DNA from: Methanosuratincola petrocarbonis
GTDB lineage: Archaea > Thermoproteota > Methanomethylicia > Methanomethylicales > Methanomethylicaceae
Reading direction: 5' to 3'
DNA length: 64,000 nucleotides
NCBI GenBank assembly: GCA_030522375.1
Contig: CP130488.1
Coordinates: 1,408,569-1,472,568 of the forward strand
The notes under the pieces are model-generated. The model had not been told where the DNA came from, did no database searches, and saw only the letters and a program-made list of their open reading frames with translations. Both the position numbers and the translations under genes were made by a program. Below, piece after piece: positions 9,204 through 60,194 of the stretch (within the stretch, counting starts at the first letter, position 1; every line of letters starts with the position of its first letter).

Positions 9204-10535
9204 ATGCCGACATACCACCTGGGCATCGACGACACCGATTCCCTCAAGAGGGGTTGCACGACCTATGTCGGCGCCCTACTCGTGGAGAGGCTGCTCCCGC
9301 AAGCTGCATTCATTGATTTCCCCAACCTCATCCGGCTGAACCCAAACATCCCATGGAAGTCGAGGGGGAACGCGGCGATCTGCCTGAGGATCTCGACCCA
9401 AAGGGACTGCGATTATCTTCTTGAGCTGGCGGAGGAGGTCGTCGAGGAGAACAGGGATCGGCAGGACGAAAAGAACCAGCCAGGCATCGCTCTCCTCCAG
9501 GGCGAAGTGCCCGACAGGCTGAAACTATTCGGGAGGAGGGCGCTGTATGACGTCCTTTCCGTCGAGGATGCCATTAGCCTGGCGCGCGAGCTGGGCGTGA
9601 AGTACAAGACGATTAAAGGCGGTAGGGGGCTGGTCGGGGCACTTGCAGCGATAGGAAACACGCTCGAGGGCGACCACACATATGAATTGATAGTCTACAG
9701 GAAAAAAGAGACTTGGGACCGGATGAGGCAGGTCGACCGAGAAAGCGTAGTGGAGATGGACAAGGAGACGTCCCCCTACACCTTCAACAACCTAGATTAC
9801 GAGACGGGCAGAGTCCTGATCACGCCCCACGGATCCGACCCGATACTCTTCGGGGTGAGGGGGGAGAGCCCCGGCGTGCTCAGGCAAGCCCTGAAAGTCC
9901 TGAGGTTCTCAGGCGGGGATAGATGGATCATCTACCGCTCCAACCAAGGGACAGATGCCCACCTGATAAACAACGCAGCAGTGGCTGGGCTGAGGCCGTA
10001 CCAAGCCGCAGTGATAGAGGGGGAGCTGACGGTCGCCCCCAAAGTAATCCGCGGCGGGCACACGATAGCAGAGCTCGGCGACGCGACGGGCAGAATCGAC
10101 ATTGTGGCTTACGAAAAGTCCGGGGGGATCCAGAGGGTCTTGAGGGGGCTCCTTCCAGGGGACCGCGTACGAGCGTACGGCGGGGTGAGCCCCCAAGAGG
10201 AGAGGTCGCCAAAGCTGACGCTCAACCTGGAAAAACTCGAGGTACTGGAGCTGGTAAAGACCGCAGCCAGGAACCCGCTTTGCGAAAAATGCAAGGTCAG
10301 GATGAAAGCCAAGGGGAGGAACAAGGGCTACAAATGCGAAAAATGCGGCCTGGAGGCGAAGGAGCCCGTCTTTGAGAGCCTGGACAGGAAGGCAAAAGAA
10401 GGCGTTTATCTGCCGCCCCCGAGGTCGGTCCGGCACCTCACGAAGCCACTGCAGAGGTACGGGATGGAAAAGAGCTGGTGCGGCGGCTCAGCAGATTCCT
10501 TTTTTGGCTTTATCGATCCCAAGGGCTCGCCTTAG
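9204..10535 (+). CDS. tiaS: tRNA(Ile2) 2-agmatinylcytidine synthetase TiaS
   Basis: N-terminus MPTYHLGIDDTDS...GCTTY...LIRLNPNIPWKSRGNAA matches the TiaS kinase-like domain. C-terminal zinc ribbon CEKCKV...CEKCG. Confidence 0.8.
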   Translation: MPTYHLGIDDTDSLKRGCTTYVGALLVERLLPQAAFIDFPNLIRLNPNIPWKSRGNAAICLRISTQRDCDYLLELAEEVVEENRDRQDEKNQPGIALLQGEVPDRLKLFGRRALYDVLSVEDAISLARELGVKYKTIKGGRGLVGALAAIGNTLEGDHTYELIVYRKKETWDRMRQVDRESVVEMDKETSPYTFNNLDYETGRVLITPHGSDPILFGVRGESPGVLRQALKVLRFSGGDRWIIYRSNQGTDAHLINNAAVAGLRPYQAAVIEGELTVAPKVIRGGHTIAELGDATGRIDIVAYEKSGGIQRVLRGLLPGDRVRAYGGVSPQEERSPKLTLNLEKLEVLELVKTAARNPLCEKCKVRMKAKGRNKGYKCEKCGLEAKEPVFESLDRKAKEGVYLPPPRSVRHLTKPLQRYGMEKSWCGGSADSFFGFIDPKGSP

Positions 10536-10766
10536 GAATCCGGGGTCGGAGCCTACGGGAGGCACGACCAGGTCAGTATGCCTGAGAGCCTCCACAGGGA
10601 TTCCCTTCGCTATGACAGAGGAGTGCAGTTCGGCCAGCTTTTCCTTGAATTCCTCATCCTTGCCCTCTTCCAAGAGCTGGAACAGATACTCCCCAGCCTG
10701 GATGATTTCTCTTTCCAGGGGGGCAGGGACGTCATACTTGCCCTTGCTCGAGAGGAGGACGATCAT
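10488..10766 (-). CDS. Hypothetical small protein
   Basis: ORF overlapping the TiaS 3' end. Start taken at internal Met (MIVLL). No family recognised. Confidence 0.25.
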   Translation of the reverse strand: MIVLLSSKGKYDVPAPLEREIIQAGEYLFQLLEEGKDEEFKEKLAELHSSVIAKGIPVEALRHTDLVVPPVGSDPGFLRRALGIDKAKKGIC

Positions 10767-10816
10767 TCTCCGCACGGGAGTAAATGAAGCGCCCAAGCTT
10801 ATAGGAATTTCTTAAT

Positions 10817-10912
10817 TGGTAGCGGGGGGTGGATTTGAACCACCGATCTCGGGGTTTCTCAACCGACGGGGCTTATGAGCCCCGCGGGATAACCTGGCTA
10901 CCCCACCCCGCT
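10817..10912 (-). tRNA. Initiator tRNA-Met (anticodon CAU) with an 18-nt anticodon-loop intron
   Basis: Reverse complement reads AGCGGGGTGGGGTAGCCAGGTTATCCCGCGGGGCTCATAA[intron]CCCCGAGATCGGTGGTTCAAATCCACCCCCCGCTACCA. It has an A1:U72 pair, a GGG:CCC anticodon stem and a CUCAUAA loop. The intron lies at canonical 37/38 (about 10856-10873). CCA is encoded. Confidence 0.75.
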
Positions 10913-12629: not shown

Positions 12630-12818
12630 ATGTTTTCGATCAACATGGTGAAAGGGGTCTGCTGCGTCTGCCACAAGAACATCGGAGGGTTTTTCGAGGA
12701 GAGGGCATGGAGGTGCGAAGGGTGCGGCAGGCTTTACTGCAAAAAGTGCGCGCCCAAGAGGAAAGGGCTACTATCAGACCACCCGGTATGCCCAAGGTGC
12801 GGCAGGATGCTGAAGTAA
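12630..12818 (+). CDS. Double zinc-ribbon small protein
   Basis: 62 aa with four CxxC pairs (CCVC, CEGC, CKKC, CPRC). Confidence 0.5.
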   Translation: MFSINMVKGVCCVCHKNIGGFFEERAWRCEGCGRLYCKKCAPKRKGLLSDHPVCPRCGRMLK

Positions 12819-12910
12819 GGGAATGCTCAGCACGATCATTGGCAATTGGATAATGCTTCGTACGTTGAGAATGGAAAAGGCAAAGCATTGGCTGTTTATC
12901 AAGAAACTTC

Positions 12911-13055
12911 ATGGATTGCGAGGGGAGAGCTCTTCGGGAACAAAATCGAGCCGTAGGTGTAGGGAGCGACGCGTTCCCTGGCTGGGCTCGCGGTCCACTG
13001 GGGGAAAGTCCCACGGGAGGCGCGCCGGGCCGGAAGTGGAGGGGGGCGCTGAGGG
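12911..13055 (+). pseudogene. Decayed copy of the C2H2 zinc-finger ORF (junction cassette copy A, gene 1)
   Basis: Nucleotide homology to 58025-58186 (MDCEG... vs VDCGEELFGG...). A frameshift removes the CxxxxC...HxxxxH finger and the stop codon. Confidence 0.4.
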
Positions 13056-13256
13056 TTGAGCTGGAGGGAGGGCGAGGGCGTTCTGGAGCTCCTGCTCCTG
13101 AGGATGCGCGGGTGCGGGTCGAAGGAGGAGTGCCGGGAGGCGGTGGAAGAGGTCCTGACCCTCGTGAAGGAAAGGAAGCTCGAGAGATTAAAAGAGGACC
13201 TATGGATGATGGGAGAGATGTTTTTAAAAACAGTGCTTAATGAATTCTATTCTTAG
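13056..13256 (+). CDS. Small helical protein (junction cassette copy A, gene 2); TTG start
   Basis: LSWREGEGVLELLLLRMRGCGSKEECREAVEEVLTLVKERKLERLKEDL is paralogous to 58186-58347 and to the remnant at 16258-16353. High GC. Confidence 0.45.
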   Translation: MSWREGEGVLELLLLRMRGCGSKEECREAVEEVLTLVKERKLERLKEDLWMMGEMFLKTVLNEFYS

Positions 13257-13304
13257 CAAATAAGAACTAAACTTTTTATATAACAAACATTCATATTCTG
13301 CTGC

Positions 13305-14564
13305 ATGTCCAGTCTCAAGACCTTCTATGAATACGGCAAGGTCAGCAAGGATGATCTTGGACTGGACAGGCAAGACGTGAAGATTCTCGACAGGCTTGCT
13401 GACGAGAAGGCAGGCGTCCTCGATCATTCCAAAGGCGGGTACAGGTTAAAGCAGTACGTCGGGGCCATACCGCTCCACTCCTGCGTGCTTGAAGTTCTGC
13501 CAAAGATCTACAGGGGTGAGGGCGGCACGGTGCAAAACAGGTTGGCGCTATTCTGGCTGCTTTCGTTCGTAGGGGCCTTTGAAATAAAGGAGTCTGACTT
13601 TCTTAAGAAGGGCCTCGAGAAGATGGACTTCTTCGATCTGATGAAGTACGTATTCGCGAGGAACTTGAACGACCAGGTCAAGGACGGGGTCTACAGGGAC
13701 TACGTGCCGGCTGAGGGGAACGAGAGGTACCTCAAGGGCCGCCTAGACTTTGTGAAGGACATTCGCCACAACTACGCCGACAGGTCGAGGTTCTATGTCA
13801 GGTACGACGAGTATACGGAAGACAACCCGATGAACCGCACCCTTGCTGCTGCCGTCAGGGGCATGGTGCCGGGGTCGGGCGTGATGAGCAGGCAGCTGCT
13901 GGCTCGGCTCTCAGCCGCATTCTGCGACGTGGGTTACGAGAACGGGAACGGCCTACTAGTGCAGAGGGTCACGAAGAACCGCCTCAACGAAAGGTACTGG
14001 CCCTCTTATGAGATGGCAAAGATCTTCCTCTCGGGGAAGGTGCCACAGATCTATTCAGGGAAGGACCTGCTGACTTATGGATTCCTCTTCGACATGAACA
14101 GGCTATTCGAGGAGTTCGTGGGGAAATTCTTGAAGAGGCATGCGAACGAGATCTTCGGCGAGGGGGCCGAGGCGCTTGTTCAGCCGGGATACCGTTTCGG
14201 CGATCTCGCGATCAGACCCGACGTGATAATCCGCCTGAAAGACCGGACTATTGTTTTGGACACGAAGTACAAGGGCATCCCAGAAGAGACGGAGCGATCC
14301 AACGCCGACATCTTCCAAGTCTACACGTATTGCATGGCCATGAAAGAAAGAGATCCTTCGAACGAAGCGGTAGGCATCCTTCTCTATCCGAAGCACGTCG
14401 GCGAAGATGTAAACCAAAAATGCGAGACGAAGAGTGTAGGAAAAGTAAGCGAATACCATGCGAAGATATGCCGCCGGTTGATCGACTTGGATGTTGGCTA
14501 TGGCAGGGGCAATCTCGAAAAATTCGTCGAGAGGTTTGAAGAATTGTTTAAAGGAGCGATATGA
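13305..14564 (+). CDS. mcrC: McrC-like subunit of a Type IV (McrBC-like) restriction system
   Basis: 419 aa. C-terminal PD-(D/E)xK core IRPDVIIRLKDRTIVLDTKYKGI matches the McrC DxK nuclease motif. Stop overlaps the downstream McrB start (ATGA). Confidence 0.7.
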   Translation: MSSLKTFYEYGKVSKDDLGLDRQDVKILDRLADEKAGVLDHSKGGYRLKQYVGAIPLHSCVLEVLPKIYRGEGGTVQNRLALFWLLSFVGAFEIKESDFLKKGLEKMDFFDLMKYVFARNLNDQVKDGVYRDYVPAEGNERYLKGRLDFVKDIRHNYADRSRFYVRYDEYTEDNPMNRTLAAAVRGMVPGSGVMSRQLLARLSAAFCDVGYENGNGLLVQRVTKNRLNERYWPSYEMAKIFLSGKVPQIYSGKDLLTYGFLFDMNRLFEEFVGKFLKRHANEIFGEGAEALVQPGYRFGDLAIRPDVIIRLKDRTIVLDTKYKGIPEETERSNADIFQVYTYCMAMKERDPSNEAVGILLYPKHVGEDVNQKCETKSVGKVSEYHAKICRRLIDLDVGYGRGNLEKFVERFEELFKGAI

Positions 14565-16201
14565 AAATGAGCGATGAATCGTTCAATGAAACTATGAATA
14601 AAAAAGAAGATCCAGCAAGTAAATACAACTTTGGCGTAAATTTTTGGAAGGTTTCGCTAGGTCAAGGAGGCGTATACACAGAGGAGTTTATAGACAAAGA
14701 GATCTTTGCAATGGGAAGTTACAGAGTCATTTCTCTTCGTAATTTAAACGACTATGGAACTCCTGAGAAACTAGAAAAAGAAGTGCCCGAACTCTACTTT
14801 GGGGCTGAACACTATGGCGGAAATCAACTTGTCTGCATTTGGAAGAAAATGAAACGTGGTGACGTACTGTTAGCCTATAAAACAGGGACGATAACAGCTT
14901 TTGGAGTGGTTAATAGCGATTACAAATTTACTGATGAGTGGAAGTACTGGTGGTATTATGGAAATAGGTTGGGGTCGCATTATCGCAAAGTTAAATGGAT
15001 CAATCTTCTTCCTAATCCGATCCCTCTCGATGACAATGAAATAAAATTTTTAAAAGAACCTCAAAACACTATAAAGTCCTTCGAGGGACACGAAGACCTG
15101 CTATATAAAATCCTTGACAGGGCACCTTCAAAATTAATAGAAGAATTGCGAGAGCTCGTACAGAAATGCAAGTCAGTTGAACAGGAAGTTGAGCAGGAAG
15201 TGGAACCGGAAGTTGAGCAGGGATCAAAAGTGAAGAACCCTTTGAACGTCATCCTGTACGGCCCGCCGGGGACAGGGAAGACCTACGCGACTGAAGCGGC
15301 CATAATCGCGGTAGAAAAGGGGGATGACGTTCGCGAAGTTTTGCGCGAAGGGAACCTAAAGGATTACATTGAGAACAACGCAGAGAAATTAGAGGCATCC
15401 AAGCAAAGGATAAGGCGCGTAACATTCCACCCCAGCTACTCTTACGAGGACTTTATCGAGGGGATCACGGTCAGGACGGGCAACAACGGCCAGGTTGTTT
15501 ACGAAGTCAAGAAAGGCGCGTTCAGAGAGCTGGCGGAGGAGGCGCTGGATCACCTGGATAACAAGTACTATCTGGTGATCGACGAGATAAACAGGGGGAA
15601 CATTTCCAAGATATTCGGCGAGCTGGTGACGCTGATAGAGGAGGACAAAAGGTGTGGCAACCCGAATGACGGATACTGCGCCACGCTGCCTTACTCAAAA
15701 GAAGAGTTTAGGGTCCCGAAGAACCTCTACCTGATAGGGACGATGAATACATCCGACAGGAGCATTGCGCTGGTGGACCTGGCCCTCAGGAGGCGCTTCG
15801 AGTTCATAGAACTGATGCCGAGACCGGAAATCCTGGGCGGTGTGCAATTCAATGGAATCGACCTTGAGGGGCTGCTGGAAACAATCAATGAAAGGATCAA
15901 AAAGCTAGGTGAGAGAGACAAGCAGATAGGCCACGCCTACTTCATGGATGGTGAAGAACCCATCAGAGACCTCCGCAGACTGAAAGACGTATGGTTCAAC
16001 AAGGTACTGCCACTTCTCAATGAGTACTTCTACGGCCGGTGGGAGGACATTGCCTATGTATTGGGCGGCGAAAAGGGAGGCGAAGCCCCCTTCCTGGAAA
16101 GGTTGACGGAGGAAGACGCAGACCTTTACGACTTTAAGGGCTACATGGAGGACGAGGAGTTCATCGATGAGTTGAATAAGGTAATCCAAAGGCAGGAATA
16201 G
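14561..16201 (+). CDS. mcrB: McrB-like AAA+ GTPase with N-terminal EVE/PUA-like reader domain
   Basis: Walker A ILYGPPGTGKT. McrB signature LVIDEINRGNISKIFGELVTLIE and GTMNTSDRS..DLALRRRFEF. The N-terminal ~200 aa are AT-rich with an EVE-like pattern (NFWKVSLGQG...MKRGDVLLAYKTGTITAFGVVNSDYKF). Linker repeat QEVEQEVEPEVEQ. Confidence 0.85.
   Translation: MKMSDESFNETMNKKEDPASKYNFGVNFWKVSLGQGGVYTEEFIDKEIFAMGSYRVISLRNLNDYGTPEKLEKEVPELYFGAEHYGGNQLVCIWKKMKRGDVLLAYKTGTITAFGVVNSDYKFTDEWKYWWYYGNRLGSHYRKVKWINLLPNPIPLDDNEIKFLKEPQNTIKSFEGHEDLLYKILDRAPSKLIEELRELVQKCKSVEQEVEQEVEPEVEQGSKVKNPLNVILYGPPGTGKTYATEAAIIAVEKGDDVREVLREGNLKDYIENNAEKLEASKQRIRRVTFHPSYSYEDFIEGITVRTGNNGQVVYEVKKGAFRELAEEALDHLDNKYYLVIDEINRGNISKIFGELVTLIEEDKRCGNPNDGYCATLPYSKEEFRVPKNLYLIGTMNTSDRSIALVDLALRRRFEFIELMPRPEILGGVQFNGIDLEGLLETINERIKKLGERDKQIGHAYFMDGEEPIRDLRRLKDVWFNKVLPLLNEYFYGRWEDIAYVLGGEKGGEAPFLERLTEEDADLYDFKGYMEDEEFIDELNKVIQRQE
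15170..15225 (+). repeat. 12-nt tandem repeat encoding the (Q/P)EVE linker in McrB
   Basis: gaacaggaagtt gagcaggaagtg gaaccggaagtt gagcagg. Confidence 0.6.
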
Positions 16202-16257
16202 TTCAACTTTTTTATTTTTATGAACTCGGGAGTTCGTTTGGCAGTTGAGATAGAGAT

Positions 16258-16353
16258 TGGATGCGAGGGCGAGTAAATTATGCTCTCGTCCTGGCTTTGG
16301 TCAAGGAAAGGAAGCTCGAGAGGCTGAAGGAGGAGCTGGGGATGATGGAGTAA
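16258..16353 (+). pseudogene. 3' remnant of the cassette small gene (copy B)
   Basis: ...CEGE* then a frame shift to LVLALVKERKLERLKEELGMME*. The core ggtcaaggaaaggaagctcgagaggctgaaggaggagctgggg is near-identical to the copies at 13151-13215 and 58275-58340. It sits between the convergent mcrB and RM genes. Confidence 0.5.
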
Positions 16354-16355
16354 AC

Positions 16356-19235
16356 TCAGACTCTGGTCCTGGCCCTGCGGAGCTCCTGCAGCTCTTTCAG
16401 CCCCTCTTCGACCTGGCGCCTTTCCTTTTCCGTCAGACCCAGGATGTCGTAGACGGCTTCGTCCAGCTCTTTCTGGGCCTTCTTCTCGGCTTCGATGGCC
16501 TCTTCCAGCTGTTTCCTGGCTTCGATCTCGAGGATGCCGGGTTGATCCTTCTTTTTGGAGCGGAGCGATTCCAAGGTCTCTTCGGCTTTGATGCTTTTGT
16601 TGATGGTGTTTGCAAGTTTCAAAAAGGCATTGCGCAGTTCCTGTTTTTCTGACGCGTTTATGCAATTCATGTCTATTACAGGCATTTTTTTAAGCTCGTA
16701 TACTTCGATTTTCAAAACTCCGCCACCGTAGGAACGACCAAACAGCTCAACTATTAGATGCAAAATCGATGAGTTAAGAAAAGCAGCATACGAAAACCTA
16801 TCCTCATGATTACGGAGTTTGATAAAATGAAGCACGTTAGGCGCATAAATTGTGCCTTCTAATAGATATGCTTTTGATTTTGTATCGATCATATACTGGA
16901 AAATAAGGTCAGGGTCCAACAATCTAGGCAGCACATACCACAACTTCCTCCCCTTTAAGGTCTCTAGTTCAGGCAGCCGCCTCCTTTCCTGCTTCGATCC
17001 CCTGGTGACCTCTACCTCCATCCTCTCGCCGTACTCGATGTACTTCAGGGCATTCGTCCCCTTCAGCTCCTCCTTCGGCTTGTCGCACATGAAGAAGTAT
17101 TCGTCGACTTCCTCCGGCTTTATGACCAAGCCGCGGACCTTCTTGGGCGAAGAGACGCACGGGACAAGGAACTCGGGCTCTATGCCCCACTCCTCCGCTT
17201 TTTCTTTGGAAAGTATGAAGAAGTCGTTGCATCCCGTAGTCGGTCCCCTCACGACTTCAGCAACTTCGCCGAGCGGCCTCATTTTCGGGTGTTTCATCAG
17301 CTTCTTGAATACGGGCGGGGCCCTCAGGTAAACGTTCCACTTCCCCGGCTTGAGCTTGCCCTGCTTCACGACGGTGACCCTTATCCTATCGTCCTCGATG
17401 TCCTCCTCTGACTCAAGGAGCTTCAGCAGCTCCTCATTACTGATCCTCTTCTTTACCCTCACGAACCTAGCCAGGTTCTCTTCCCTCTTCTTCTCGTCCT
17501 TTTCCTTCTGCAAGATCGTGATTGCAGTGTTCACTTCAGCGTCCGGGAAGACAGCCCTGTCGAACTCGATTACGTAGAGGATTTTTGTGTTCCTAAGCAG
17601 GAACTCCTGGAAGGGCTCGCCGTACCCGACCTCCAGCCACTTGTTCGAGGATATGTAACCGAGCATCCCTCCCTGCTTCAGGAAGCGTATCGAGTGGATG
17701 TAGAAGTAGACGTAGATGTCGCTCATCCTGTCCAGGACGATCCCCTTCTTGTTCTTTGCCTGCCCCACGAAGAGCTGGTCCTTGTACTCCTCCTGCACCA
17801 GCTGGAAGATCTTCCTCTTTTCCGAGTCGCCAAGAAGCTCCTGGCGTATGTACGGCGGGTTGGCTACGACGGCGTCGAAAGCCCCGGGGATCTTGATCAG
17901 CATCTGCTTCCCCTCGGTGTCCATGCTCCTGAAGCCCATCAGGGTTTCCTGGCGGGGCTTGAGGTCGAAGAAGTCCTTCACGGCGACGTTTATCTTTTCC
18001 ACCTTCGCCTTCGGGTTCTGTATCGCCAGGTTGATTACAGATAAGTGGGCGGGGAACTGGTTTATGTCCACGCCGTATACCTGCGCTAAAAGCTGCCTGT
18101 GGAAGATCTCGCCCAGGGGCCCCGACATCTCTTTTGGTATCCCGTTGAGCTCCCTCAGGCGCTGGTAGACTTTTACGAGGAACGACCCTGAACCACAAGC
18201 GGGGTCGAGTACCTTGGCGTCCTTCTTAGTGACGGTGAGCCTGACGATCAGGTCCACTATCTCGGGAGGGGTGTAGAACTGCCCGAGGCGCTTCCGCTCT
18301 GTGGGCGGGATGAGCTTCTCGTAGACCCTCCCGAGGAAGTCGCTTTCCATCTTCGAATAGTCGTACTCGTTCAGCGAGTCGATGAGCGTTCTGAACCTTT
18401 CCTTCGCCCTCTCGGTGAATGGGATCTCGTTCATGAGGTCAGGCTGGTATATCGGCTCGTAGTCGATGTTCCTCACTTTCTCGTAATAGTGCATCAAAGA
18501 GTCGTAGACGTCCTCCTCTTCGCCTATCGCTATCCCGGGGAGCTTGTTTGGGTATATCGTCCTGATGACGTCGTAGAAGAGGAGCTTGTTGAGCTGGAGG
18601 TAAGTAGTCTGGTCTGCGATCTTCCTGACGTCCTCCGGATCGTCGGGCCTGAGGCCCTGGTCGAGCATCCACTTTTCGAACCTGGCTCTGAAGCTGTCGT
18701 CCTGGAGCCTCTTCTTGAGCGACGAATGGAACTCTTCCCTGAGGTCCTCGTAAGCCTCGTGGAGGAGCTCGACCAGCGAGTCGTCCACGGCCTTGAGCGA
18801 GACCGGGACTATTCCGAGGACCATCTTAAGCAGCTGCTCGGCCCAGCCATCGTTCCCCTCTACGTCGATGGAAGCAACCTCGCTCTCGTAGGGCTTCTTC
18901 CCCGGCATCAACTTGAACAGGACGAGGCGCTTCGGGTTGCACGTGGCGTAGTAGGGGTAGCCGCCGTTGGAAGCGTAGGAAACGGCTTGAGAGATCACAT
19001 CCGGATCCCTTGGCTCTATGTCCCTTTTGACTCCGCCCACCTTCTTCTTGTACTTCGCCTCTATGACCAGGAGGCGCCTCCCCGACTGCTCGACTACGAG
19101 GTCGGCTTTACCACCGTTGACCTGCTTCTCTGTGTGTAAGTCGAGGTCCAAGCTAAGCTCTTTGGCTGCCTCCTTAAGATTGTAAAAGAGCCTGTTGGTG
19201 ACGAAGTCGGACTCGGACACGAGCTGGGCGGGCAT
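16356..19235 (-). CDS. Type IIG restriction-modification enzyme (N-terminal PD-(D/E)xK nuclease fused to gamma-class N6-adenine MTase and TRD)
   Basis: 959 aa. N-terminal D...LLVIEAKYKKK nuclease motif. MTase motifs in gamma order: FYTPPEIV (X), LDPACGSGSFL (I), VVANPPY (IV). Large C-terminal region consistent with a target-recognition domain. Confidence 0.75.
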   Translation of the reverse strand: MPAQLVSESDFVTNRLFYNLKEAAKELSLDLDLHTEKQVNGGKADLVVEQSGRRLLVIEAKYKKKVGGVKRDIEPRDPDVISQAVSYASNGGYPYYATCNPKRLVLFKLMPGKKPYESEVASIDVEGNDGWAEQLLKMVLGIVPVSLKAVDDSLVELLHEAYEDLREEFHSSLKKRLQDDSFRARFEKWMLDQGLRPDDPEDVRKIADQTTYLQLNKLLFYDVIRTIYPNKLPGIAIGEEEDVYDSLMHYYEKVRNIDYEPIYQPDLMNEIPFTERAKERFRTLIDSLNEYDYSKMESDFLGRVYEKLIPPTERKRLGQFYTPPEIVDLIVRLTVTKKDAKVLDPACGSGSFLVKVYQRLRELNGIPKEMSGPLGEIFHRQLLAQVYGVDINQFPAHLSVINLAIQNPKAKVEKINVAVKDFFDLKPRQETLMGFRSMDTEGKQMLIKIPGAFDAVVANPPYIRQELLGDSEKRKIFQLVQEEYKDQLFVGQAKNKKGIVLDRMSDIYVYFYIHSIRFLKQGGMLGYISSNKWLEVGYGEPFQEFLLRNTKILYVIEFDRAVFPDAEVNTAITILQKEKDEKKREENLARFVRVKKRISNEELLKLLESEEDIEDDRIRVTVVKQGKLKPGKWNVYLRAPPVFKKLMKHPKMRPLGEVAEVVRGPTTGCNDFFILSKEKAEEWGIEPEFLVPCVSSPKKVRGLVIKPEEVDEYFFMCDKPKEELKGTNALKYIEYGERMEVEVTRGSKQERRRLPELETLKGRKLWYVLPRLLDPDLIFQYMIDTKSKAYLLEGTIYAPNVLHFIKLRNHEDRFSYAAFLNSSILHLIVELFGRSYGGGVLKIEVYELKKMPVIDMNCINASEKQELRNAFLKLANTINKSIKAEETLESLRSKKKDQPGILEIEARKQLEEAIEAEKKAQKELDEAVYDILGLTEKERRQVEEGLKELQELRRARTRV

Positions 19236-19399
19236 ACGGACACCGAGTGGTCGTTAATTATGATGTTAAGGTGTATAAAACGATAATTGGTTTAGAAGTT
19301 GTAAGATCTTCCAAAGTAAACAAAACCCGTACGCGCTAAAAGGTGGTGTAGGATTTGCGTTTTGTTGATTAGGGAGTTTAATTTTCACAATGTTAGATG

Positions 19400-20419
19400 C
19401 TATGGGATTGAATTTAATAGATTTTTAAATGCTGATATGAATATTTCGATCTCATACTCAGAAATTTCCCCTTTACGGGTGCCCATCCCGGGCTGTTTCA
19501 TAGTGTCATACCTGTTTTGTAAACCGCGGATTTTCACAACTTCATCGCGAAATTTTGCTGCTGCTTCTGGCGGAAATTTAGCATTTATAGTCGATTTATA
19601 CAGATATATCGAATTAGACCATAACGTTAAAAGGCAGAATCCCGAACCTTTTGAAGTCACGTAGTATGAAAATGCTTGTTTTCCTGGCCTGAGCTCGTGT
19701 CCTTTTTCTTTGGCTATTGCCTTCAATCGTTCATATAATACGCGATTTGGTTCCTCGCATCCCTTAAGAAACTCATGCTCTGATATCAGCTTTGATATCG
19801 ATGGCGTTTCGCCTTCGTCTTTCGTTTCTGGCTGTATTTTAACCCTTTGATCGATTCTGTAAGCTACATCTTTACCACCATCTTCGGCGTATTTCTCAAT
19901 TGTCAAAAGCACCACGTCCCGTGCTAGAGACTGAGTTCGTGCCCACACGGTGAGGTCGGCCGGTATGACGTCTATGGCTATGACTACCACCGGTGTATTT
20001 TCAATAATTTTTTCCAAAGTTCTGTGTATTTCAATCTCAGGTATTCCTCTATCCGTAAACTTTTTTTTCAACTCCTCGGATTTTTTGATTATGTCAAACG
20101 CCCTTTTAACAAAGTCGTTTTTGGTTTGATAGTTGTCCGCGGCCACTATCTGCTTTGATACTTGCGGGACTATGTGATGCCATGTGTCATGTTCTGCCAG
20201 CTCCGCTTCAACGATATACCATCTCTCAGCTTCAAGGTCTATAACAATGCCATCAGGAATAGTCCCGCTGCCGCCTGCCGTTACCATGGATTGTTGAGGA
20301 ATATATATGACATCGCCATCAAAAACGGCCTCCGGATTGGAACTCACGACTTTCTCTAACTCCGCCTCGTTATCAAATGCAGTCTTATTAAAGAGACGCG
20401 AACCAAGCACAAGACTCAC
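19400..20419 (-). CDS. Low-GC nuclease-like protein (Mrr-cat/PD-(D/E)xK-like N-domain plus uncharacterised C-domain)
   Basis: 339 aa. PDGIVIDLEAERWYIVEAEL resembles the Mrr catalytic core (PDGxID...VQCK), but Glu replaces the usual Lys. About 40% GC, sharply lower than flanking genes. Confidence 0.45.
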   Translation of the reverse strand: MSLVLGSRLFNKTAFDNEAELEKVVSSNPEAVFDGDVIYIPQQSMVTAGGSGTIPDGIVIDLEAERWYIVEAELAEHDTWHHIVPQVSKQIVAADNYQTKNDFVKRAFDIIKKSEELKKKFTDRGIPEIEIHRTLEKIIENTPVVVIAIDVIPADLTVWARTQSLARDVVLLTIEKYAEDGGKDVAYRIDQRVKIQPETKDEGETPSISKLISEHEFLKGCEEPNRVLYERLKAIAKEKGHELRPGKQAFSYYVTSKGSGFCLLTLWSNSIYLYKSTINAKFPPEAAAKFRDEVVKIRGLQNRYDTMKQPGMGTRKGEISEYEIEIFISAFKNLLNSIP

Positions 20420-20521
20420 AAACGCCCACCATTTATACTAATGATCTGGCGGTGATTAATTATGGTGATATGGGTATAAAACGATTATCATTTGAACTTT
20501 TCTAATTTTATTAACAAATTC

Positions 20522-21028
20522 TCAATTTCCTCCATCTTTGTATATTTCCTCTACCAGGCTCTTTGACGACAGGTCGTAGGTGTAGCACAAGCTCCGACCC
20601 TCGCCGTAGCTGGTTATATTGAACAACCCGCCCTGGACCTCCACGGTCAGGTAATTTGACCAGCCCCTGAAGCCGCAGGCATCGCCTACCGGGAAGGTCA
20701 CGGATCCGTTGGCGTCCAGCTGGATACTAATTTTATAGGATTTGTGGCGCAACGCCAGGCTCCCGTTTGCCAGGGGCGTACCCTCCCTCAGGATCCGAAC
20801 CGTGACCCAGTCAACGGGGACGTAGTCCTGCGTCCTCAAGATAATGGATCCGTTCGCGTTCGAGCAGTAAGCGACCGAAAGCCCACCCGTCTCTTCAATG
20901 CGCCTCTGGTCGCGCTCCCACGTACTTAGTAATTGGCAGCCAGGATAGCCAGGGTCCGAGGACGTCCAGGTGCCGTTCTCAGGAATCGATAAAAATGTGA
21001 ATCTCTTGGAAGCCGACTTTTCTTCTCT
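20522..21028 (-). pseudogene. GC-rich gene fragment lacking a start codon (secreted/beta-rich protein remnant)
   Basis: Open frame of about 168 codons with no ATG/GTG between the upstream stop (21029-21031) and the sequence ...NANGSIILRTQDYV. GC-rich island inside AT-rich DNA. Confidence 0.3.
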
Positions 21029-21192
21029 CTAATACGAGCCTGCTAAGAATGTCATGTTTGATGAATGAGAACTCGCCGCGAACCGAGAAGCCGTGAATAC
21101 CATCTTGTTTTAGAATATTCCAATCAAGCCAGAAAAAAGGATTCCATGCAAGAGATTTAGTATAATTCTGAAGTGGTTGTAGACTGATACTA

Positions 21193-21507
21193 TTATATCT
21201 TATTTACAATGTCATTGAATTCCTTTGAGAGTTGTTTCAGCTGGTCTTTCGTCCAAGCGCGCTTTATCTCCAAGAGTGCTTGGAGTATCCTGGCTGTAAC
21301 CTCGTCATTAGGGTAACACTTCTTTTCTGTAGCCAGATACCTGTAGAGCTGCGGCCTTGAGATCTTTGTCATTTTCGAGGTCTTGTATATGGAGCCGTAG
21401 ACTTCAAGGAGGCTTTTCAGGAATAGAATCCGATATTCGTTCGGGATGTATTGAGAAATCAGCTGTATTATCTCAAATGAAGAGTTGACCCTGGACATTT
21501 TGATCAA
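21193..21507 (-). CDS. Small HTH-containing protein (104 aa)
   Basis: AT-rich ORF. ISRPQLYRYLATEKK resembles an HTH recognition helix. Borders a 1.1-kb non-coding region. Confidence 0.35.
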   Translation of the reverse strand: MIKMSRVNSSFEIIQLISQYIPNEYRILFLKSLLEVYGSIYKTSKMTKISRPQLYRYLATEKKCYPNDEVTARILQALLEIKRAWTKDQLKQLSKEFNDIVNKI

Positions 21508-22606
21508 ATTATTCTTGAGATTTGGGTTATAAGAGGGTGACCCCTGCCTTTCAATTGGACTTTGTTGCCTTAACAGGAGGGTTGAAATGAAGTAAATGTG
21601 TAAATTTAAGAGATCCTTTACAAAAATTCTCGACTGAAAGTCTTTTATATAGACTGGCGGTTATTAACATTTACACTGTCTTTTCTAAAGGTAGTAAATA
21701 ATACCTAAGTAATATACACTTCCAAGCGAAGAATAGGGGTGCCAGGGTTTGATGATCTGCCTTTGGGCTTCTACCCATTCTATTTAAAGTTAATCCTTCT
21801 TTTTTTAAATGGTTGTTGAAAAAGGACTTCCAGTAGAAATTTGAGCAAACCCCGCAGCAAAACTCGTAAAATACTTCCCAAGTCCAATTAGTAAGGCTTG
21901 ATCGGCAGGACCAAACTAAATGCCAGTCATGCGTTTAGGCACTCTCCGGGGCCAGCTGCCGCACATTTATGTAACATATTCGATACATAAAAATGCCTGA
22001 TTCAAGCCCTCTGAGGTCGTGTAAAACACTGTAAAATTGTTCGTTTTATGTAACTATTCTGTTACAACTTACCATCAAAATGCCATATAATAATTCATTT
22101 TAAAGCGGTCTATTTTCGTCTCACATCGGCATCATAAATTCTAATATTTAAACTTATCTATCATTAACGCCTGCTTTGATGGTGTTTTTAAATTTTTCAT
22201 GGTGTATTTAGATCATCAAGTCCGGAAGTCTTAGTAAAAAACAATCTAGGTGCTTTGCTTTCTGATCCGTAAAAGTGACTTTGTAATAGTTCATTCTAGA
22301 GCGGCGCTATTACAGAACCTTGTTTTCGCGTCATTTTTACATCATAGTCACAGTGTGATATTAACGTTTTGGCCTTATGTGCTGGTTTGATACAATTCAC
22401 CCCTTCACTTCCACTCGAACCCAGTGAATGAACCCATTATGAATTTATTTTGTCCAGATTCACTTGTGATTTACTCCAGTGAACCTAAACAGTGGAATTT
22501 TTCCTTTTTTCTACATAATGACCATCAAAATTTGCTTATTTAACAACGCTATGTAAACCACAATACGCTCATATACCTATGAAGAAGTTAACTTTAGGCT
22601 GCTACT
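21508..22606. other. 1.1-kb AT-rich non-coding region with a GTGAA(T/C)/ATTCAC motif cluster at 22390-22500
   Basis: No ORF above 60 aa on either strand. At least six copies of (C)AGTGAA(T/C) or its complement lie within 110 bp just upstream of the 22607 gene. Confidence 0.5.
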
Positions 22607-23816: not shown

Positions 23817-24380
23817 TCACAACGAATGCTTGGCTATCAAGTCTATTTTTGTCACGATTCCTACCATCGTTCCATGGTCACTCACTAGGACCGCAGGGCT
23901 CTTAGCAGACAGTATGCGCGCAACCTCATCAAGATCCATATCAATGCTCACAATGGGAAAGCCTTCTTCCACGAACCTTCCGACCTTCTGCTTGAAGAGG
24001 TCTTTTATTGATCCCTTGGCGACTTCTTTCAGGATCGTCTCCTCTCGAAGGCTCCCCACTATCTTGCCGTTCTCTACTACGGGCAGCTGTGAAATGCCGT
24101 TTTTCCACATCAACTCTACTGCCTTCTCGAGGGGTTCGTCTATTCCAACGGTAATTATTGGTGCATGCATCACGTCCTTGATTTTGGCCTTTTTTCCCTC
24201 GCCGGTATCTAGCGCTACAAGGATCTTGCGCAATGTAGAGATCCGGGGATCTATTGTCCCTGCCTCTATCCTGGCAATCAGTGCCTGGCTCACGCCCGCC
24301 TTTTTCGCCAGCTGTTCCTGAGTCAGCCCCGCCTTCTTTCTCATTGCCCTTATCTCGTGCGGAGTGGGCAAAGAGACCAT
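23817..24380 (-). CDS. XRE-HTH plus tandem CBS-domain transcriptional regulator
   Basis: N-terminal HTH (LTQEQLAKKAGVSQALIARIE) followed by a CBS pair. Divergent from hypF. Confidence 0.7.
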   Translation of the reverse strand: MVSLPTPHEIRAMRKKAGLTQEQLAKKAGVSQALIARIEAGTIDPRISTLRKILVALDTGEGKKAKIKDVMHAPIITVGIDEPLEKAVELMWKNGISQLPVVENGKIVGSLREETILKEVAKGSIKDLFKQKVGRFVEEGFPIVSIDMDLDEVARILSAKSPAVLVSDHGTMVGIVTKIDLIAKHSL

Positions 24381-58024: not shown

Positions 58025-58186
58025 GTGGACTGCGGGGAGGAGCTCTTCGGCGGGAGGGTCAGGTGCAAGTACAGGGGGTGCAGGAAGTGGTGCGCCTCCT
58101 GGCTGGGTCTGGCCGTGCACCTGAGGAAGGGGCACGGGGTGTCGGCGTCGGAGGTGTCCTGGAAGGACCTGGAGGGGGAGCGGTGA
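58025..58186 (+). CDS. Small C2H2 zinc-finger protein (junction cassette copy C, gene 1)
   Basis: (V/M)DCGEELFGGRVRCKYRGCRKWCASWLGLAVHLRKGHGVS... contains C-x4-C-x12-H-x4-H. Its stop overlaps the gene 2 start (TGATG). GC about 65%. A longer ATG-initiated frame begins at 57887. Confidence 0.45.
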   Translation: MDCGEELFGGRVRCKYRGCRKWCASWLGLAVHLRKGHGVSASEVSWKDLEGER

Positions 58187-58347
58187 TGGGCTGGCACGAG
58201 TGCGAGGGCGTCCTTGAGCTGGTCCTTGTGAGGATGAAGAGGTGCGCAACGGCGGAGGAATGCCGCGGGGCCGTGGAGGAGGTCCTTGCGCTGGTCAAGG
58301 AAAGGAAGCTCGAGCGGCTGAGGGAGGAGCTGGGGGTGATTGGATAG
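58186..58347 (+). CDS. Small helical protein (junction cassette copy C, gene 2)
   Basis: MGWHECEGVLELVLVRMKRCATAEECRGAVEEVLALVKERKLERLREELGVIG is paralogous to 13056-13256 and the remnant at 16258-16353. AT-rich foreign DNA begins immediately downstream. Confidence 0.5.
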   Translation: MGWHECEGVLELVLVRMKRCATAEECRGAVEEVLALVKERKLERLREELGVIG

Positions 58348-58778
58348 ATTTTAAACTCTTTCTAAACGCTAATGAGGCAATTCGTGGCCCATATTTCTGT
58401 GATCGGGGAAACAATGATCTGCAACGACGATATCCTAAATGCAAATTATCTGAGAATTCAGCAGGTCTCATCATAACCCTCCACATCATGTGATTAATCA
58501 ATATCTTTTTTTGTCATGGAATCCGAAAAGATCGCCCCCCGATCATCTAATTACAGGAGCGCGCTCATCTTATAAAGGTCTACACATTTCATGGCGATCC
58601 ATGTCTCTATTAAACTTCGAAAAATAAAAGAAAGATTCTCTATATGATGTTTAATTTGTAGTAATGAGTCGCTCAAATAAACTAAAGGTTTCATCACGCA
58701 CTAGAGTTAGATAAAACATATATTTCCAATAGCTTATATGATGCTTACTTTTATATTAAAAATTAGGAGTGTTCTACA

Positions 58779-59375
58779 TTGAATCCAGACGATGCATTTG
58801 AGCAAAATAAAGAATGCATACCTTTTTCTGAGATAATCAAAAAAACTACCGGTCACGAAGTCCAACCACTTTCGAAAGAAGATAACGATGTGATAAATGA
58901 AATATCTGAAGCAGCTAAAAAAATTTTAGAGAGATACAAAAACGAAGTCTTTTCTGATCGACGACCTAATGAAGTTAGCAATCTTTTAGAAAGAGAATTA
59001 AGAGCTTCGCTTAAGGGTGCTAGCATACCAGAAAATAAAGCTGCAGGGTATCCAGACATCCTGATTGTAAGAGGACCTCGCTGTTTCTATATAGAAGTGA
59101 AACTGACCGGTGAAGAACAGACCGATAGTTCTTTAAGGTCTTTCTATTACGAGCCGGCAAAAAATGTTAAAATAAAAAAAGATGCGCGCCATATCCTAAT
59201 TGGATTTGAACACCGCAATAAAAATTTACATAAATTCAAAATTGTTGATCTTTCAAAAATAAATGTTTGTTTGAAAAAAGAATTCAATGCTAATAATAGA
59301 GAACTTTATAAAAAAGAGGCAATCGTGTTAGAATATCCCCCAGAAAAGTCAAATCAGTCGACTTTGGCAGGTTAA
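58779..59375 (+). CDS. Type II restriction endonuclease (PD-(D/E)xK)
   Basis: [20 protein letters not shown] gives a PD...ExK core. About 33% GC. TTG start preceded by AGGAG. Its 3' end overlaps the convergent MTase gene by 27 nt. Confidence 0.55.
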
Positions 59376-60194
59376 CCTCAATTCATTTATCCTCTTTTCT
59401 GCCTCTCTGGCATAGTATTCGTCTATCTCAAAACCTATCCAATCTATTCCCAGTTTTTTACAAGCTATGGCAGTATTACCAATGCCCATAAATGGATCGA
59501 GAACGAGTTGTGTCTTGCTAACCCCATGAAGTTTGATGCACGTCATTGGAACCTCAGGCGGAAATGACGAAGGATGAGGCCTTTGCTTTTCTTTTGATCT
59601 TATGGTATTATATGGAATAAACCAAGTGTTACCACGACATCTTAAATCTTTACTTACCGATTTCCATCTTCCTATGTTCGATTTATCTTGATAAGGCACA
59701 CCTATTGCCAGTCTATCAAGTTCAACATCCCCTTTTTTTGTAAAATGAAAAATGTATTCAAAGCAGTCATTAAGAAAGCGTTTCCCACCAATTGGTTTAA
59801 AATGCCCAACAGCAATATCGCCCTTTATGTTTGGATAATCCCCAACATCTTCTTTCTTTATGGCGATAGACTTGACCCAAATGATAATGTTCTGAAGCGT
59901 GAAGTATTTTCTTAACCTGAAAGCGACTTCCCATGGCACCCAAAGATCGGTAGGCTTGTGCCCAAAGTTAAGGAAGAATGATCCATCTTTGTGCAATACA
60001 CGCCTACACTCTTTTCCTACTTCGTCAATCCAAGCTAAGTAATCTTCCCGAGGTATAGTGTCGTCATATTTATTGTACTTCACCCCAATATTGTATGGAG
60101 GCGAAGTAACGATTACATCGACTTCTTCTGGGTTGAGAAGGGTTTTCATACCTTCCAAGCAATCCATTACATAGATTTTGTTTCTTTCAATCAT
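59349..60194 (-). CDS. Beta-class DNA methyltransferase (N4-cytosine/N6-adenine; SPPY motif)
   Basis: Motif [14 protein letters not shown] lies N-terminal to motif [14 protein letters not shown], i.e. beta-class order. N-terminal [13 protein letters not shown]. Confidence 0.85.

What the first reader, a model, noticed from the sequence alone, without database searches (positions are those of the whole stretch)
13305..21507. Composite defense island: inverted mcrC-mcrB, Type IIG RM, and low-GC accessory genes
mcrC precedes mcrB with ATGA coupling, the opposite of the canonical E. coli order. A 959-aa single-chain Type IIG enzyme (nuclease plus gamma-class N6A MTase plus TRD) converges on mcrB with the cassette remnant between them. 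Downstream lie a ~40% GC nuclease-like gene, a start-less GC-rich gene fragment and a small HTH gene. Core genes resume at 23817. GC composition shifts sharply several times, implying stepwise assembly.
Basis: partly seen in the sequence, partly recalled or inferred. Interest (0 to 1): 0.6.

Follow-up and report, generated by a model that had tools for sequence, protein, structure and literature searches.

The report
Mosaic archaeal restriction-enzyme defence island
An 8.3-kb, strain-variable block in the methanogenic archaeon Methanosuratincola petrocarbonis holds two familiar DNA-restriction systems and a rare nuclease-like gene, assembled by swapping gene cassettes; it is a typical defence island, not a new kind of system.

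Summary
mcrC (13305-14564) overlaps mcrB (14561-16201) in ATGA. A 959-aa single-chain Type IIG enzyme (16356-19235, minus strand) converges on mcrB. Next come a 42% GC nuclease-like gene (19400-20419) and a start-less fragment of a ~271-aa gene (20522-21031).

Synteny with the sister species M. verstraetei sets the island at 12817-21137. The "small HTH gene" (21193-21507) and the genes up to 23817 are conserved core, not island.

Other M. petrocarbonis strains carry different cargo in the same slot. The window joins the left half of one configuration to the right half of another. Junctions lie at a repeated 54-aa gene and in the conserved 3' tail of the IIG gene.

Low-GC patches coincide with specificity modules: the McrB reader domain, the IIG target-recognition subdomain and the 339-aa gene. 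Island-wide GC equals the genome's.

The McrB N-terminal domain folds as an EVE/YTH-like modified-base reader, a known architecture. The mcrC-then-mcrB order is rare (2 of 73 metagenomic relatives) but fixed in the closest relatives.

Verdict: an ordinary defence hotspot, well documented. The only modestly new element is the 339-aa protein, whose C-terminal domain is rare and unassigned. A probable replication origin lies beside the island.

The parts
12817..21137 (.). Whole variable island (8,321 bp), lying between the core Zn-ribbon gene (ends 12818) and the core 104-aa gene (21193-21507).
   Evidence: blastn against sister species L007: window 10501-12816 matches L007 11298-13605, and window 21138-24499 matches L007 13887-17216, with only 282 bp between them in L007. 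tblastn synteny.
12823..13256 (+). Left-edge small-gene module. It comprises a 78-aa ORF (12823-13059, related to a 62-aa gene in other strains) and a 66-aa ORF (13056-13256). The 66-aa ORF is the 5' part of a 54-aa gene family fused to a new tail.
   Evidence: The module is shared by all strain configurations at 94-100%. A second copy of the module lies at 58037-58352.
13152..13212 (+). Direct repeat copy R1 (3' part of the 54-aa gene). The 20-nt core at 13167-13186 is identical to 16303-16322.
   Evidence: the repeat finder family D2: 61 nt, 80% identical, 3136 bp apart. blast-short.
13305..14564 (+). mcrC: DUF2357-type N-terminal region plus a PD-(D/E)xK nuclease (RPD 304-306 and D319-T-K321).
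   Evidence: PF10117 E 2.8e-59. PDB 6ut5_G, T. gammatolerans McrC, E 2.3e-28. Motif positions.
14561..15205 (+). mcrB N-terminal reader domain (precomputed Pfam DUF8426), 38.8% GC. Predicted EVE/YTH-like PUA-superfamily fold.
   Evidence: AF2 model pLDDT 88.5. Foldseek hits: VcaM4I EVE-HNH 6yex E 4.6e-5, YTHDF2/3 about 1e-3, EVE proteins 2p5d, 2hd9 and 1wmm. GC.
15206..16201 (+). mcrB AAA+ GTPase motor plus lid. Motifs: Walker A GPPGTGKT 234-241, Walker B DE 341-342, McrB signature MNTSDRS 395-401.
16261..16353 (+). Remnant of a second copy of the 54-aa gene (30 codons).
   Evidence: R2 is 96.6% identical to the 3' half of the intact 54-aa gene in strains that lack mcrCB.
16356..19235 (-). Type IIG restriction-modification enzyme, 959 aa. 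Layout: PD-(D/E)xK nuclease (about aa 1-160), helical linker, gamma-class N6-adenine methyltransferase (aa ~300-600), TRD (aa ~650-880), conserved C-terminal tail (aa 881-959).
   Evidence: D45, E59, A60 and K61 are invariant in 15 homologues. Allele comparison.
16595..16926 (-). Variable TRD subdomain of the IIG gene (aa ~770-880), 37.3% GC. It has no nucleotide similarity to the 955-aa allele of strain GCA_039630765.1 and is 28-42% identical at protein level.
16359..16594 (.). Segment shared at >=99.8% by both strain configurations. The crossover between the 'mcrCB' half and the 'IIG959 + 339-aa gene' half lies within it.
   Evidence: Window is 99.84% identical to L001 up to 16594 and 99.9% identical to L087 from 16359 onward.
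19400..20419 (-). 339-aa two-domain protein. The N-terminal ~190 aa is a nuclease-like domain shared with REase-RAMA proteins. The C-terminal ~130 aa is a rare, unassigned domain.
20522..21031 (-). 5'-truncated remnant of a ~271-aa gene. The frame is open but has no start codon before a TTG at 20839.
   Evidence: tblastn with the intact L178 protein aligns its residues 119-259 to window 20995-20570 at 51%. Translation.

Best explanation
Window 12817-21137 is a hypervariable defence hotspot in the chromosome of Methanosuratincola petrocarbonis. It lies between a conserved Zn-ribbon gene and a conserved 104-aa gene.

It carries three functional units:
1. A Type IV, modification-dependent McrBC system, with mcrC first and mcrB second. 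McrB hexamers read modified bases through an EVE/YTH-like N-terminal domain and hydrolyse GTP. McrC supplies the PD-(D/E)xK nuclease that cuts the modified foreign DNA.
2. A single-chain Type IIG enzyme. It methylates adenine at its own recognition site on host DNA and cuts unmethylated invaders through its N-terminal PD-(D/E)xK domain.
3. A 339-aa protein with a restriction-endonuclease-like N-terminal domain. Its relatives carry a RAMA methyl-adenine reader at the C-terminus; here that is replaced by an unrelated rare domain. It is most likely a stand-alone DNA-sensing nuclease.

Two gene remnants are scars of earlier cargo.

The island is built from exchangeable slots bounded by conserved anchors: the repeated 54-aa gene, the 3' tail of the IIG gene and the 271-aa gene remnant. 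Homologous recombination at these anchors swaps whole cassettes and specificity modules between strains.

Shown: gene identities, motifs, fold of the reader domain, island borders, strain mosaicism.
Inferred: enzymatic activities, the target modification, and recombination as the exchange mechanism.
For: Identities:
- Pfam, NCBIfam, PADLOC and PDB matches.
- Catalytic motifs are intact.

Island status:
- Absent from sister species L007 and L008, with exact junctions.
- A related species (L176) has mcrC, mcrB and IIG remnants in the same slot.

Mosaicism:
- Configuration B is g66-mcrC-mcrB-IIG955-SPL-376-180-wHTH-216.
- Configuration C is 62aa-54aa-373-77-180-356-IIG959-339aa.
- The window matches B up to 16594 and C from 16359.
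- The intact 54-aa gene of configuration C is 94% like the window's R1 side and 96.6% like its R2 side.
- The TRD is replaced between the IIG alleles.
- Alternative cargo is also defence-linked: PDC-M30A at E 1.6e-45, PDC-M19A, and an HSDR_N plus SeqA-C protein.
- Low GC marks the swapped modules in every allele examined.
Against: - No activity, methylome or transcript data exist for any of these genes.
- PADLOC has no match for McrC, and its best IIG hits are methyltransferase-only models. NCBIfam scores are far below the equivalog cut-offs.
- The nuclease assignment of the 339-aa protein rests on conserved acidic residues and Foldseek hits with E > 0.05 against PDB.
- The base modification read by McrB cannot be deduced from the fold alone.
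- Recombination at the anchors is inferred from the sequence patterns, not observed.
- The low GC of the McrB reader domain could partly reflect amino-acid composition.
Confidence: 0.85

Rival explanations
1. The block is an integrated mobile element (provirus, plasmid or integrative element) that entered site-specifically at the nearby tRNA gene.
For: A tRNA(CAU) gene lies at 10817-10912. The block is absent from the sister species.
Against: Four genes conserved in the sister species separate the tRNA from the island. No integrase, transposase, or replication or structural gene is present. No direct repeats were found at the borders 12817 and 21137. Cargo differs slot by slot between strains rather than as one unit.
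Confidence: 0.04
2. The 959-aa protein is only a DNA methyltransferase (an orphan, or a PglX/MAD2-like component of a BREX- or MADS-type system) and does not cut DNA.
For: The top PADLOC hits are MTase_II models. mad2 covers residues 38-581 at E 2e-34. NCBIfam gives weak MAD2 and PglX matches. Pfam has no significant nuclease hit (PDDEXK_9 at E 0.08).
Against: D45-x13-E59-A-K61 is invariant in 15 homologues and conserved in both alleles. PADLOC REase_MTase_IIG models also match. No other BREX or MADS genes are in the island. NCBIfam scores are far below the family cut-offs (83.8 against 720 for MAD2).
Confidence: 0.12
3. The 339-aa protein is an accessory subunit or regulator of the adjacent Type IIG enzyme rather than an independent nuclease.
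For: It sits 164 bp upstream of the IIG gene on the same strand, and travels with the 959-aa allele in six other assemblies. A homologue lies 3 kb from a 1140-aa Eco57I-type enzyme. Relatives carry the RAMA domain, named for its association with adenine methylases (PMC4738411).
Against: The 955-aa allele in configuration B lacks it. Homologues in L094 and L095 have no IIG gene in view. The intergenic spacer is AT-rich (36.6% GC), consistent with a separate promoter.
Confidence: 0.25
4. The GC shifts reflect coding constraints rather than separate acquisitions.
For: Island-wide GC equals the genome's. The low-GC McrB reader domain is identical in both strains that carry it, so no direct swap is seen within the species.
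Against: The low-GC TRD segment is exactly the part that has no nucleotide similarity between alleles. The low-GC 339-aa gene is exactly the part replaced in configuration B. Alternative cargo is also 41-43% GC.
Confidence: 0.15

Closest known systems
Thermococcus gammatolerans McrBC (PDB 6ut3, 6ut5, 6ut7; Type IV restriction)
   Same: The AAA+ GTPase core, lid and McrB signature motif match at E 4e-63. McrC matches at E 2.3e-28. It is a two-gene archaeal system with a PUA-superfamily reader at the McrB N-terminus.
   Different: The N-terminal domains do not align: the match starts at residue 229 of the window protein. Here the domain belongs to the DUF8426 family, whose best structural match is the EVE domain of VcaM4I. 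The genes run mcrC then mcrB, a minority arrangement.
E. coli K-12 McrBC
   Same: Same GTPase and nuclease families (NF008457 at 2.4e-40, NF007277 at 1.4e-28; PDB 6hz4). The McrC motif is D-x12-D-x-K.
   Different: Scores are far below the equivalog cut-offs. The reader domain is unrelated to the E. coli DUF3578-type domain. The gene order is reversed.
Type IIG / IIL single-chain enzymes (Eco57I family, MmeI, DrdV)
   Same: One polypeptide with an N-terminal PD-(D/E)xK domain, a gamma-class N6A methyltransferase and a C-terminal TRD. Eco57I and MmeI_Mtase Pfam domains match, as do PADLOC REase_MTase_IIG models. TRD swapping between alleles changes the predicted specificity.
   Different: Sequence similarity to solved members is weak (DrdV 6e-4, MmeI 1e-3). 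The methyltransferase plus TRD part is closer to CamA- and TaqI-type methyltransferases. The recognition site and cut position are unknown.
REase-RAMA proteins ('restriction system modified-DNA reader domain-containing protein', PF18755)
   Same: The N-terminal ~190 residues are 38-47% identical, with the same invariant residues: E18, E20, D56, E71, E73, H77, W80, H82, Q86, K89.
   Different: The C-terminal domain is not RAMA (hhalign probability 0.2%). It occurs in only 21 of 1.84 billion cluster representatives, nearly all with this same architecture.
Bacterial defence-island hotspots with cassette turnover between conserved flanks
   Same: A fixed chromosomal slot, different defence cargo in conspecific strains, and decay remnants.
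   Different: This is an archaeal host. The internal anchors are a repeated 54-aa gene and the tail of a restriction gene. No integrase is present, and the slot is adjacent to an origin-like region.

Membership tests
McrBC (Type IV restriction) | McrB-type AAA+ GTPase with Walker A, Walker B and the NTxDRS signature motif | tested here: met
   GPPGTGKT 234-241, DE 341-342 and MNTSDRS 395-401, all invariant in 13 homologues. AAA_5 and McrB_lid domains; PDB 6ut3 at 4e-63.
McrBC (Type IV restriction) | Partner McrC with a PD-(D/E)xK nuclease, encoded adjacent and co-oriented | tested here: met
   PF10117 at 2.8e-59. RPD 304-306 and D319-T-K321. A 4-nt overlap with mcrB.
McrBC (Type IV restriction) | N-terminal domain that reads modified bases | tested here: met
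   The model (pLDDT 88.5) matches EVE and YTH readers with probability 0.99-1.0. This is a fold-level result only; the ligand is unknown.
McrBC (Type IV restriction) | GTP-dependent cleavage of modified DNA | not testable with these tools
   Needs biochemistry.
Type IIG restriction-modification enzyme | Nuclease and methyltransferase in one polypeptide, with an N-terminal PD-(D/E)xK motif | tested here: met
   D45...E59-A-K61 is invariant in 15 homologues. The Pfam nuclease hit is only marginal.
Type IIG restriction-modification enzyme | Gamma-class N6-adenine methyltransferase (motif X, then I, then IV NPPY, then TRD) | tested here: met
   FYTP 320-323, DPACGSG 344-350, NPPY 459-462 and TaqI_C-like TRD 755-853.
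Type IIG restriction-modification enzyme | Site-specific methylation and cleavage at a fixed distance | not testable with these tools
   Needs a methylome and a cleavage assay.
REase-RAMA modified-DNA reader nucleases | Shared N-terminal nuclease-like domain | tested here: met
   About 30 RAMA proteins align over residues 1-190 at E 1e-28 to 1e-45.
REase-RAMA modified-DNA reader nucleases | C-terminal RAMA domain (PF18755) | tested here: not met
   No Pfam hit. hhalign of the C-terminal profile against the RAMA profile gives probability 0.2%.
Integrative mobile element | Integrase or recombinase gene and flanking att repeats | tested here: not met
   No such domain found. No border repeats.
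BREX / MADS | PglX- or MAD2-type methyltransferase together with the other system genes | tested here: not met
   Only sub-threshold MAD2 and PglX matches. No other BREX or MADS component is present in 12817-21137.

The most novel reading that the evidence does not exclude
The repeated 62-aa/54-aa small-gene module could be a dedicated landing pad for integrase-free exchange of defence cassettes. It is present at the left edge of this island, as a remnant between mcrB and the IIG gene, and again at 58.0-58.35 kb beside a MjaV-type restriction-modification pair. The pad would sit next to the chromosome's replication origin. Under the same reading, the 339-aa protein would found a new class of modification-sensing nucleases with a previously undescribed reader domain.
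Probability: 0.12. Interest if true: 0.6.

Novelty: new member of a known kind. Interest (0 to 1): 0.32.

Why it matters
Methanosuratincola is one of the first cultured methanogens outside the Euryarchaeota. Knowing its restriction barriers is practical for developing genetics in it. Those barriers are a Type IV system, a Type IIG enzyme with strain-specific TRD alleles, and a MjaV-type pair elsewhere in the window.

The natural three-way mosaic gives a clean, nucleotide-resolved example of cassette and specificity-module exchange in an archaeal population.

Beyond that, the systems are of well-known kinds. The 339-aa protein and the neighbouring origin-like region are the only leads to something not yet described.

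Tried and rejected
- tRNA-targeted integration was rejected: conserved genes lie between the tRNA and the island, and there are no att repeats or integrase.
- Pfam, NCBIfam and PADLOC gave nothing for the 339-aa protein, its two halves, the 105-aa fragment or the small ORFs.
- The PDB sequence search for the 339-aa protein was empty. Foldseek against PDB gave only weak nuclease hits. BFVD gave one uncharacterised phage G protein at 3e-8.
- hhalign of the 339-aa protein's C-terminal domain against RAMA was negative.
- An exact-protein look-up of the 959-aa enzyme found no record, so the window's own assembly is not in that collection.
- I tested whether the 373/180-aa and 376/180-aa cargo proteins of the strain configurations are homologous to each other, or to the neighbours of 339-aa homologues. 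Only SPL and the 376-aa protein match, between L001, L095 and L178.
- More distant Methanomethylicia hold metabolic genes at the equivalent position. The defence hotspot is therefore specific to Methanosuratincola.
- Rfam found nothing in the ORF-free region.

Full report
**Source organism**

The window is archaeal. It holds a 23S rRNA, archaeal RNase P and three tRNAs. The McrB protein is 100% identical to a protein NCBI assigns to Candidatus Methanosuratincola petrocarbonis. The nearest genome in the species-representative collection is Ca. M. verstraetei LCB70, with 87% identity for TiaS (tRNA-Ile2 agmatidine synthetase).

**Checking the observation**

- mcrC (13305-14564) matches PF10117 at E 2.8e-59 and T. 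gammatolerans McrC at 2.3e-28. It carries the nuclease motif RPD(304-306)...D319-T-K321.
- mcrB (14561-16201) has Walker A, Walker B and the McrB signature MNTSDRS. It matches the T. gammatolerans McrB structure at 4e-63, but only from residue 229 onward.
- The ATGA overlap is in the sequence.
- The 959-aa ORF on the minus strand (16356-19235) has Eco57I, N6_Mtase, MmeI_Mtase and TaqI_C domains. Its motifs run in the gamma order. Its N-terminal D45-x13-E59-A-K61 motif is invariant in 15 homologues.
- The 339-aa gene, the start-less fragment and the remnant in the mcrB/IIG spacer are all present.

**Island borders**

blastn against the sister species shows continuous homology up to window 12816 and again from 21138. 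Only 282 bp lie between those points in the sister genome. The island is therefore 12817-21137.

The 104-aa "small HTH gene" (21193-21507), the 140-aa gene and the 238-aa gene are conserved in order across eight Methanomethylicia genomes.

There is no integrase and there are no border repeats. Four conserved genes separate the island from the nearest tRNA.

**Strain mosaic**

Exact-protein look-ups retrieved conspecific assemblies with two other arrangements.

- Configuration B (GCA_039630765.1 and Logan contigs) has the same small gene, mcrC and mcrB. These are followed by a 955-aa IIG allele and a different cargo: an SPL-type radical SAM gene, a 376-aa PDC-M30A candidate, and 180-aa, wHTH and 216-aa genes.
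- Configuration C (four other GCA assemblies) lacks mcrCB. It has a 373/77/180/356-aa cassette in that place. The 356-aa protein combines an HSDR_N nuclease with a SeqA C-terminal domain. The cassette is followed by the 959-aa allele and the 339-aa gene.
- The window equals B up to 16594 (99.84%) and C from 16359 (99.9%). The crossover therefore lies in the conserved 3' tail of the IIG gene.
- The intact 54-aa gene of C matches the window's upstream copy in its 5' half (94%) and the spacer remnant in its 3' half (96.6%). The two window copies share a 61-nt repeat with a 20-nt identical core. mcrCB thus sits between two diverged copies of this small gene. Recombination between them would delete or insert the cassette.
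- The two IIG alleles are 85-97% identical through most of the methyltransferase region, but 28-42% identical over residues 761-880 of the TRD. This predicts different recognition sites.
- A related species (L176) carries mcrC (72%), mcrB (58%) and fragments of the IIG gene in the same slot. The pairing therefore predates the species.

**Composition**

The island as a whole has 50.2% GC, against 50.0% for the rest of the window. The dips are modular:

| Segment | GC |
|---|---|
| McrB reader domain | 38.8% |
| McrB GTPase domain | 52.1% |
| Variable TRD segment | 37.3% |
| IIG body | 55.4% |
| 339-aa gene | 42.5% |

The same pattern holds in other alleles and in the alternative cargo.

**McrB reader domain**

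An AlphaFold model of residues 20-200, built from 12 homologues, has pLDDT 88.5. Its best PDB matches are the EVE domain of the modification-dependent endonuclease VcaM4I (E 4.6e-5), YTH m6A readers, and EVE proteins.

EVE-superfamily domains fused to McrB GTPases are the commonest EVE fusions known (PMC11090510, citing Bell et al. 2020). The architecture is therefore known. Which modification is read cannot be told from the fold.

The host itself encodes an N6A methyltransferase (the IIG enzyme) and an N6/N4 methyltransferase at 59349-60194. I infer that the target is a modification the host does not make in that context.

**Gene order**

Among 80 metagenomic McrB relatives fetched with flanks, 71 have mcrB then mcrC. 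Two have mcrC then mcrB, and seven are cut by contig ends. The window, the conspecific configuration-B strain and two relatives at 58-62% identity all have mcrC first. The order is a rare, clade-fixed variant.

**The 339-aa protein**

- Eight full-length homologues exist, at 43-57% identity. About thirty further proteins share only the N-terminal 190 residues and end in a RAMA domain. RAMA is a predicted methyl-adenine discriminator fused to restriction nucleases (PMC4738411).
- The invariant residues (E18, E20, D56, E71, E73, K89), together with weak structural similarity to EndoMS/NucS, R.BspD6I and phage PD-(D/E)xK proteins, suggest a restriction-endonuclease fold. The support is modest.
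- The C-terminal domain is unrelated to RAMA. It is found in only 21 of 1.84 billion representatives.
- Genomic contexts are mixed. It lies next to a IIG gene here and in one other locus, but not in two others.

**Fragment**

The frame at 20522-21031 aligns to residues 119-259 of an intact 271-aa protein in a Thermoproteota MAG whose neighbouring cargo resembles configuration B. It lacks a start codon.

**Verdict**

This is a well-supported but ordinary defence island: known system types in a newly cultured archaeal lineage. The useful additions are exact borders, a three-way natural mosaic, and one rare two-domain protein.

Outside the finding, the adjacent 1.1-kb ORF-free region looks like a replication origin (see Noticed in passing).

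Noticed in passing
window 21508-22606: A 1.1-kb ORF-free region of 36% GC lies between divergent core genes. It is conserved in position and length in eight Methanomethylicia genomes. It contains three ORB-like elements (21540-21559 minus, 21721-21740 plus, 22399-22418 minus, pattern TCCAnTnGAAr-n3-AGGGGT) and a mini-ORB (21828-21839, TTCCAGTAGAAA). Those alignment columns are largely invariant, while the surroundings vary. It also has TGTAAC/GTTACA palindromes and CCATCAA repeats. The elements resemble Pyrococcus and Sulfolobus origin recognition boxes (PMC1904270). This is a candidate replication origin, 370 bp from the island edge. No Orc1/Cdc6 gene was seen among the ORFs tested. Rfam found nothing.
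   Followed up: partly
window 58037-58352 and 58779-60194: A second copy of the 62-aa/54-aa small-gene module (74% protein identity to the intact 54-aa gene) lies just upstream of a Type II pair. The pair is a MjaV-family endonuclease (58779-59375, plus strand) and an N6/N4 methyltransferase (59349-60194, minus strand). That methyltransferase was found only on short contigs, none in the NCBI assemblies, which hints that this locus is also variable.
   Followed up: partly
window 9204-10912: A tRNA with a CAU-type anticodon and an apparent intron (10817-10912, minus strand; ARAGORN could not name it) lies within 300 bp of the TiaS gene (9204-10535). TiaS modifies the CAU anticodon of tRNA-Ile2.
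   Followed up: no
L087 14125-15195 (configuration C strains): A 356-aa protein joins an HSDR_N restriction-nuclease domain (E 2.5e-10) to a SeqA C-terminal domain (E 1.5e-5). By established knowledge, SeqA C-terminal domains bind hemimethylated GATC. It is a candidate methyl-adenine-directed nuclease, located directly downstream of the 959-aa IIG gene.
   Followed up: no
L001 16074-18187; L095 2112-5334; L178 2338-4457: An SPL-type radical SAM gene is paired with a ~376-aa PADLOC candidate PDC-M30A protein (E 1.6e-45). The pair recurs in three archaeal loci, and in two of them it lies near mcrB or a homologue of the 339-aa gene.
   Followed up: no
L176 7014-7249: A related Methanosuratincola-like contig keeps only fragments of the IIG gene (residues 681-753 and 929-959, the latter 87% identical) downstream of its mcrCB. 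This shows decay of the Type IIG gene in that lineage.
   Followed up: partly
window 15175-15221: A 12-nt tandem repeat of about four copies (AGTTGAACAGGA) sits in the linker between the McrB reader domain and the GTPase. It encodes the VEQEVEPEVEQ stretch.
   Followed up: no
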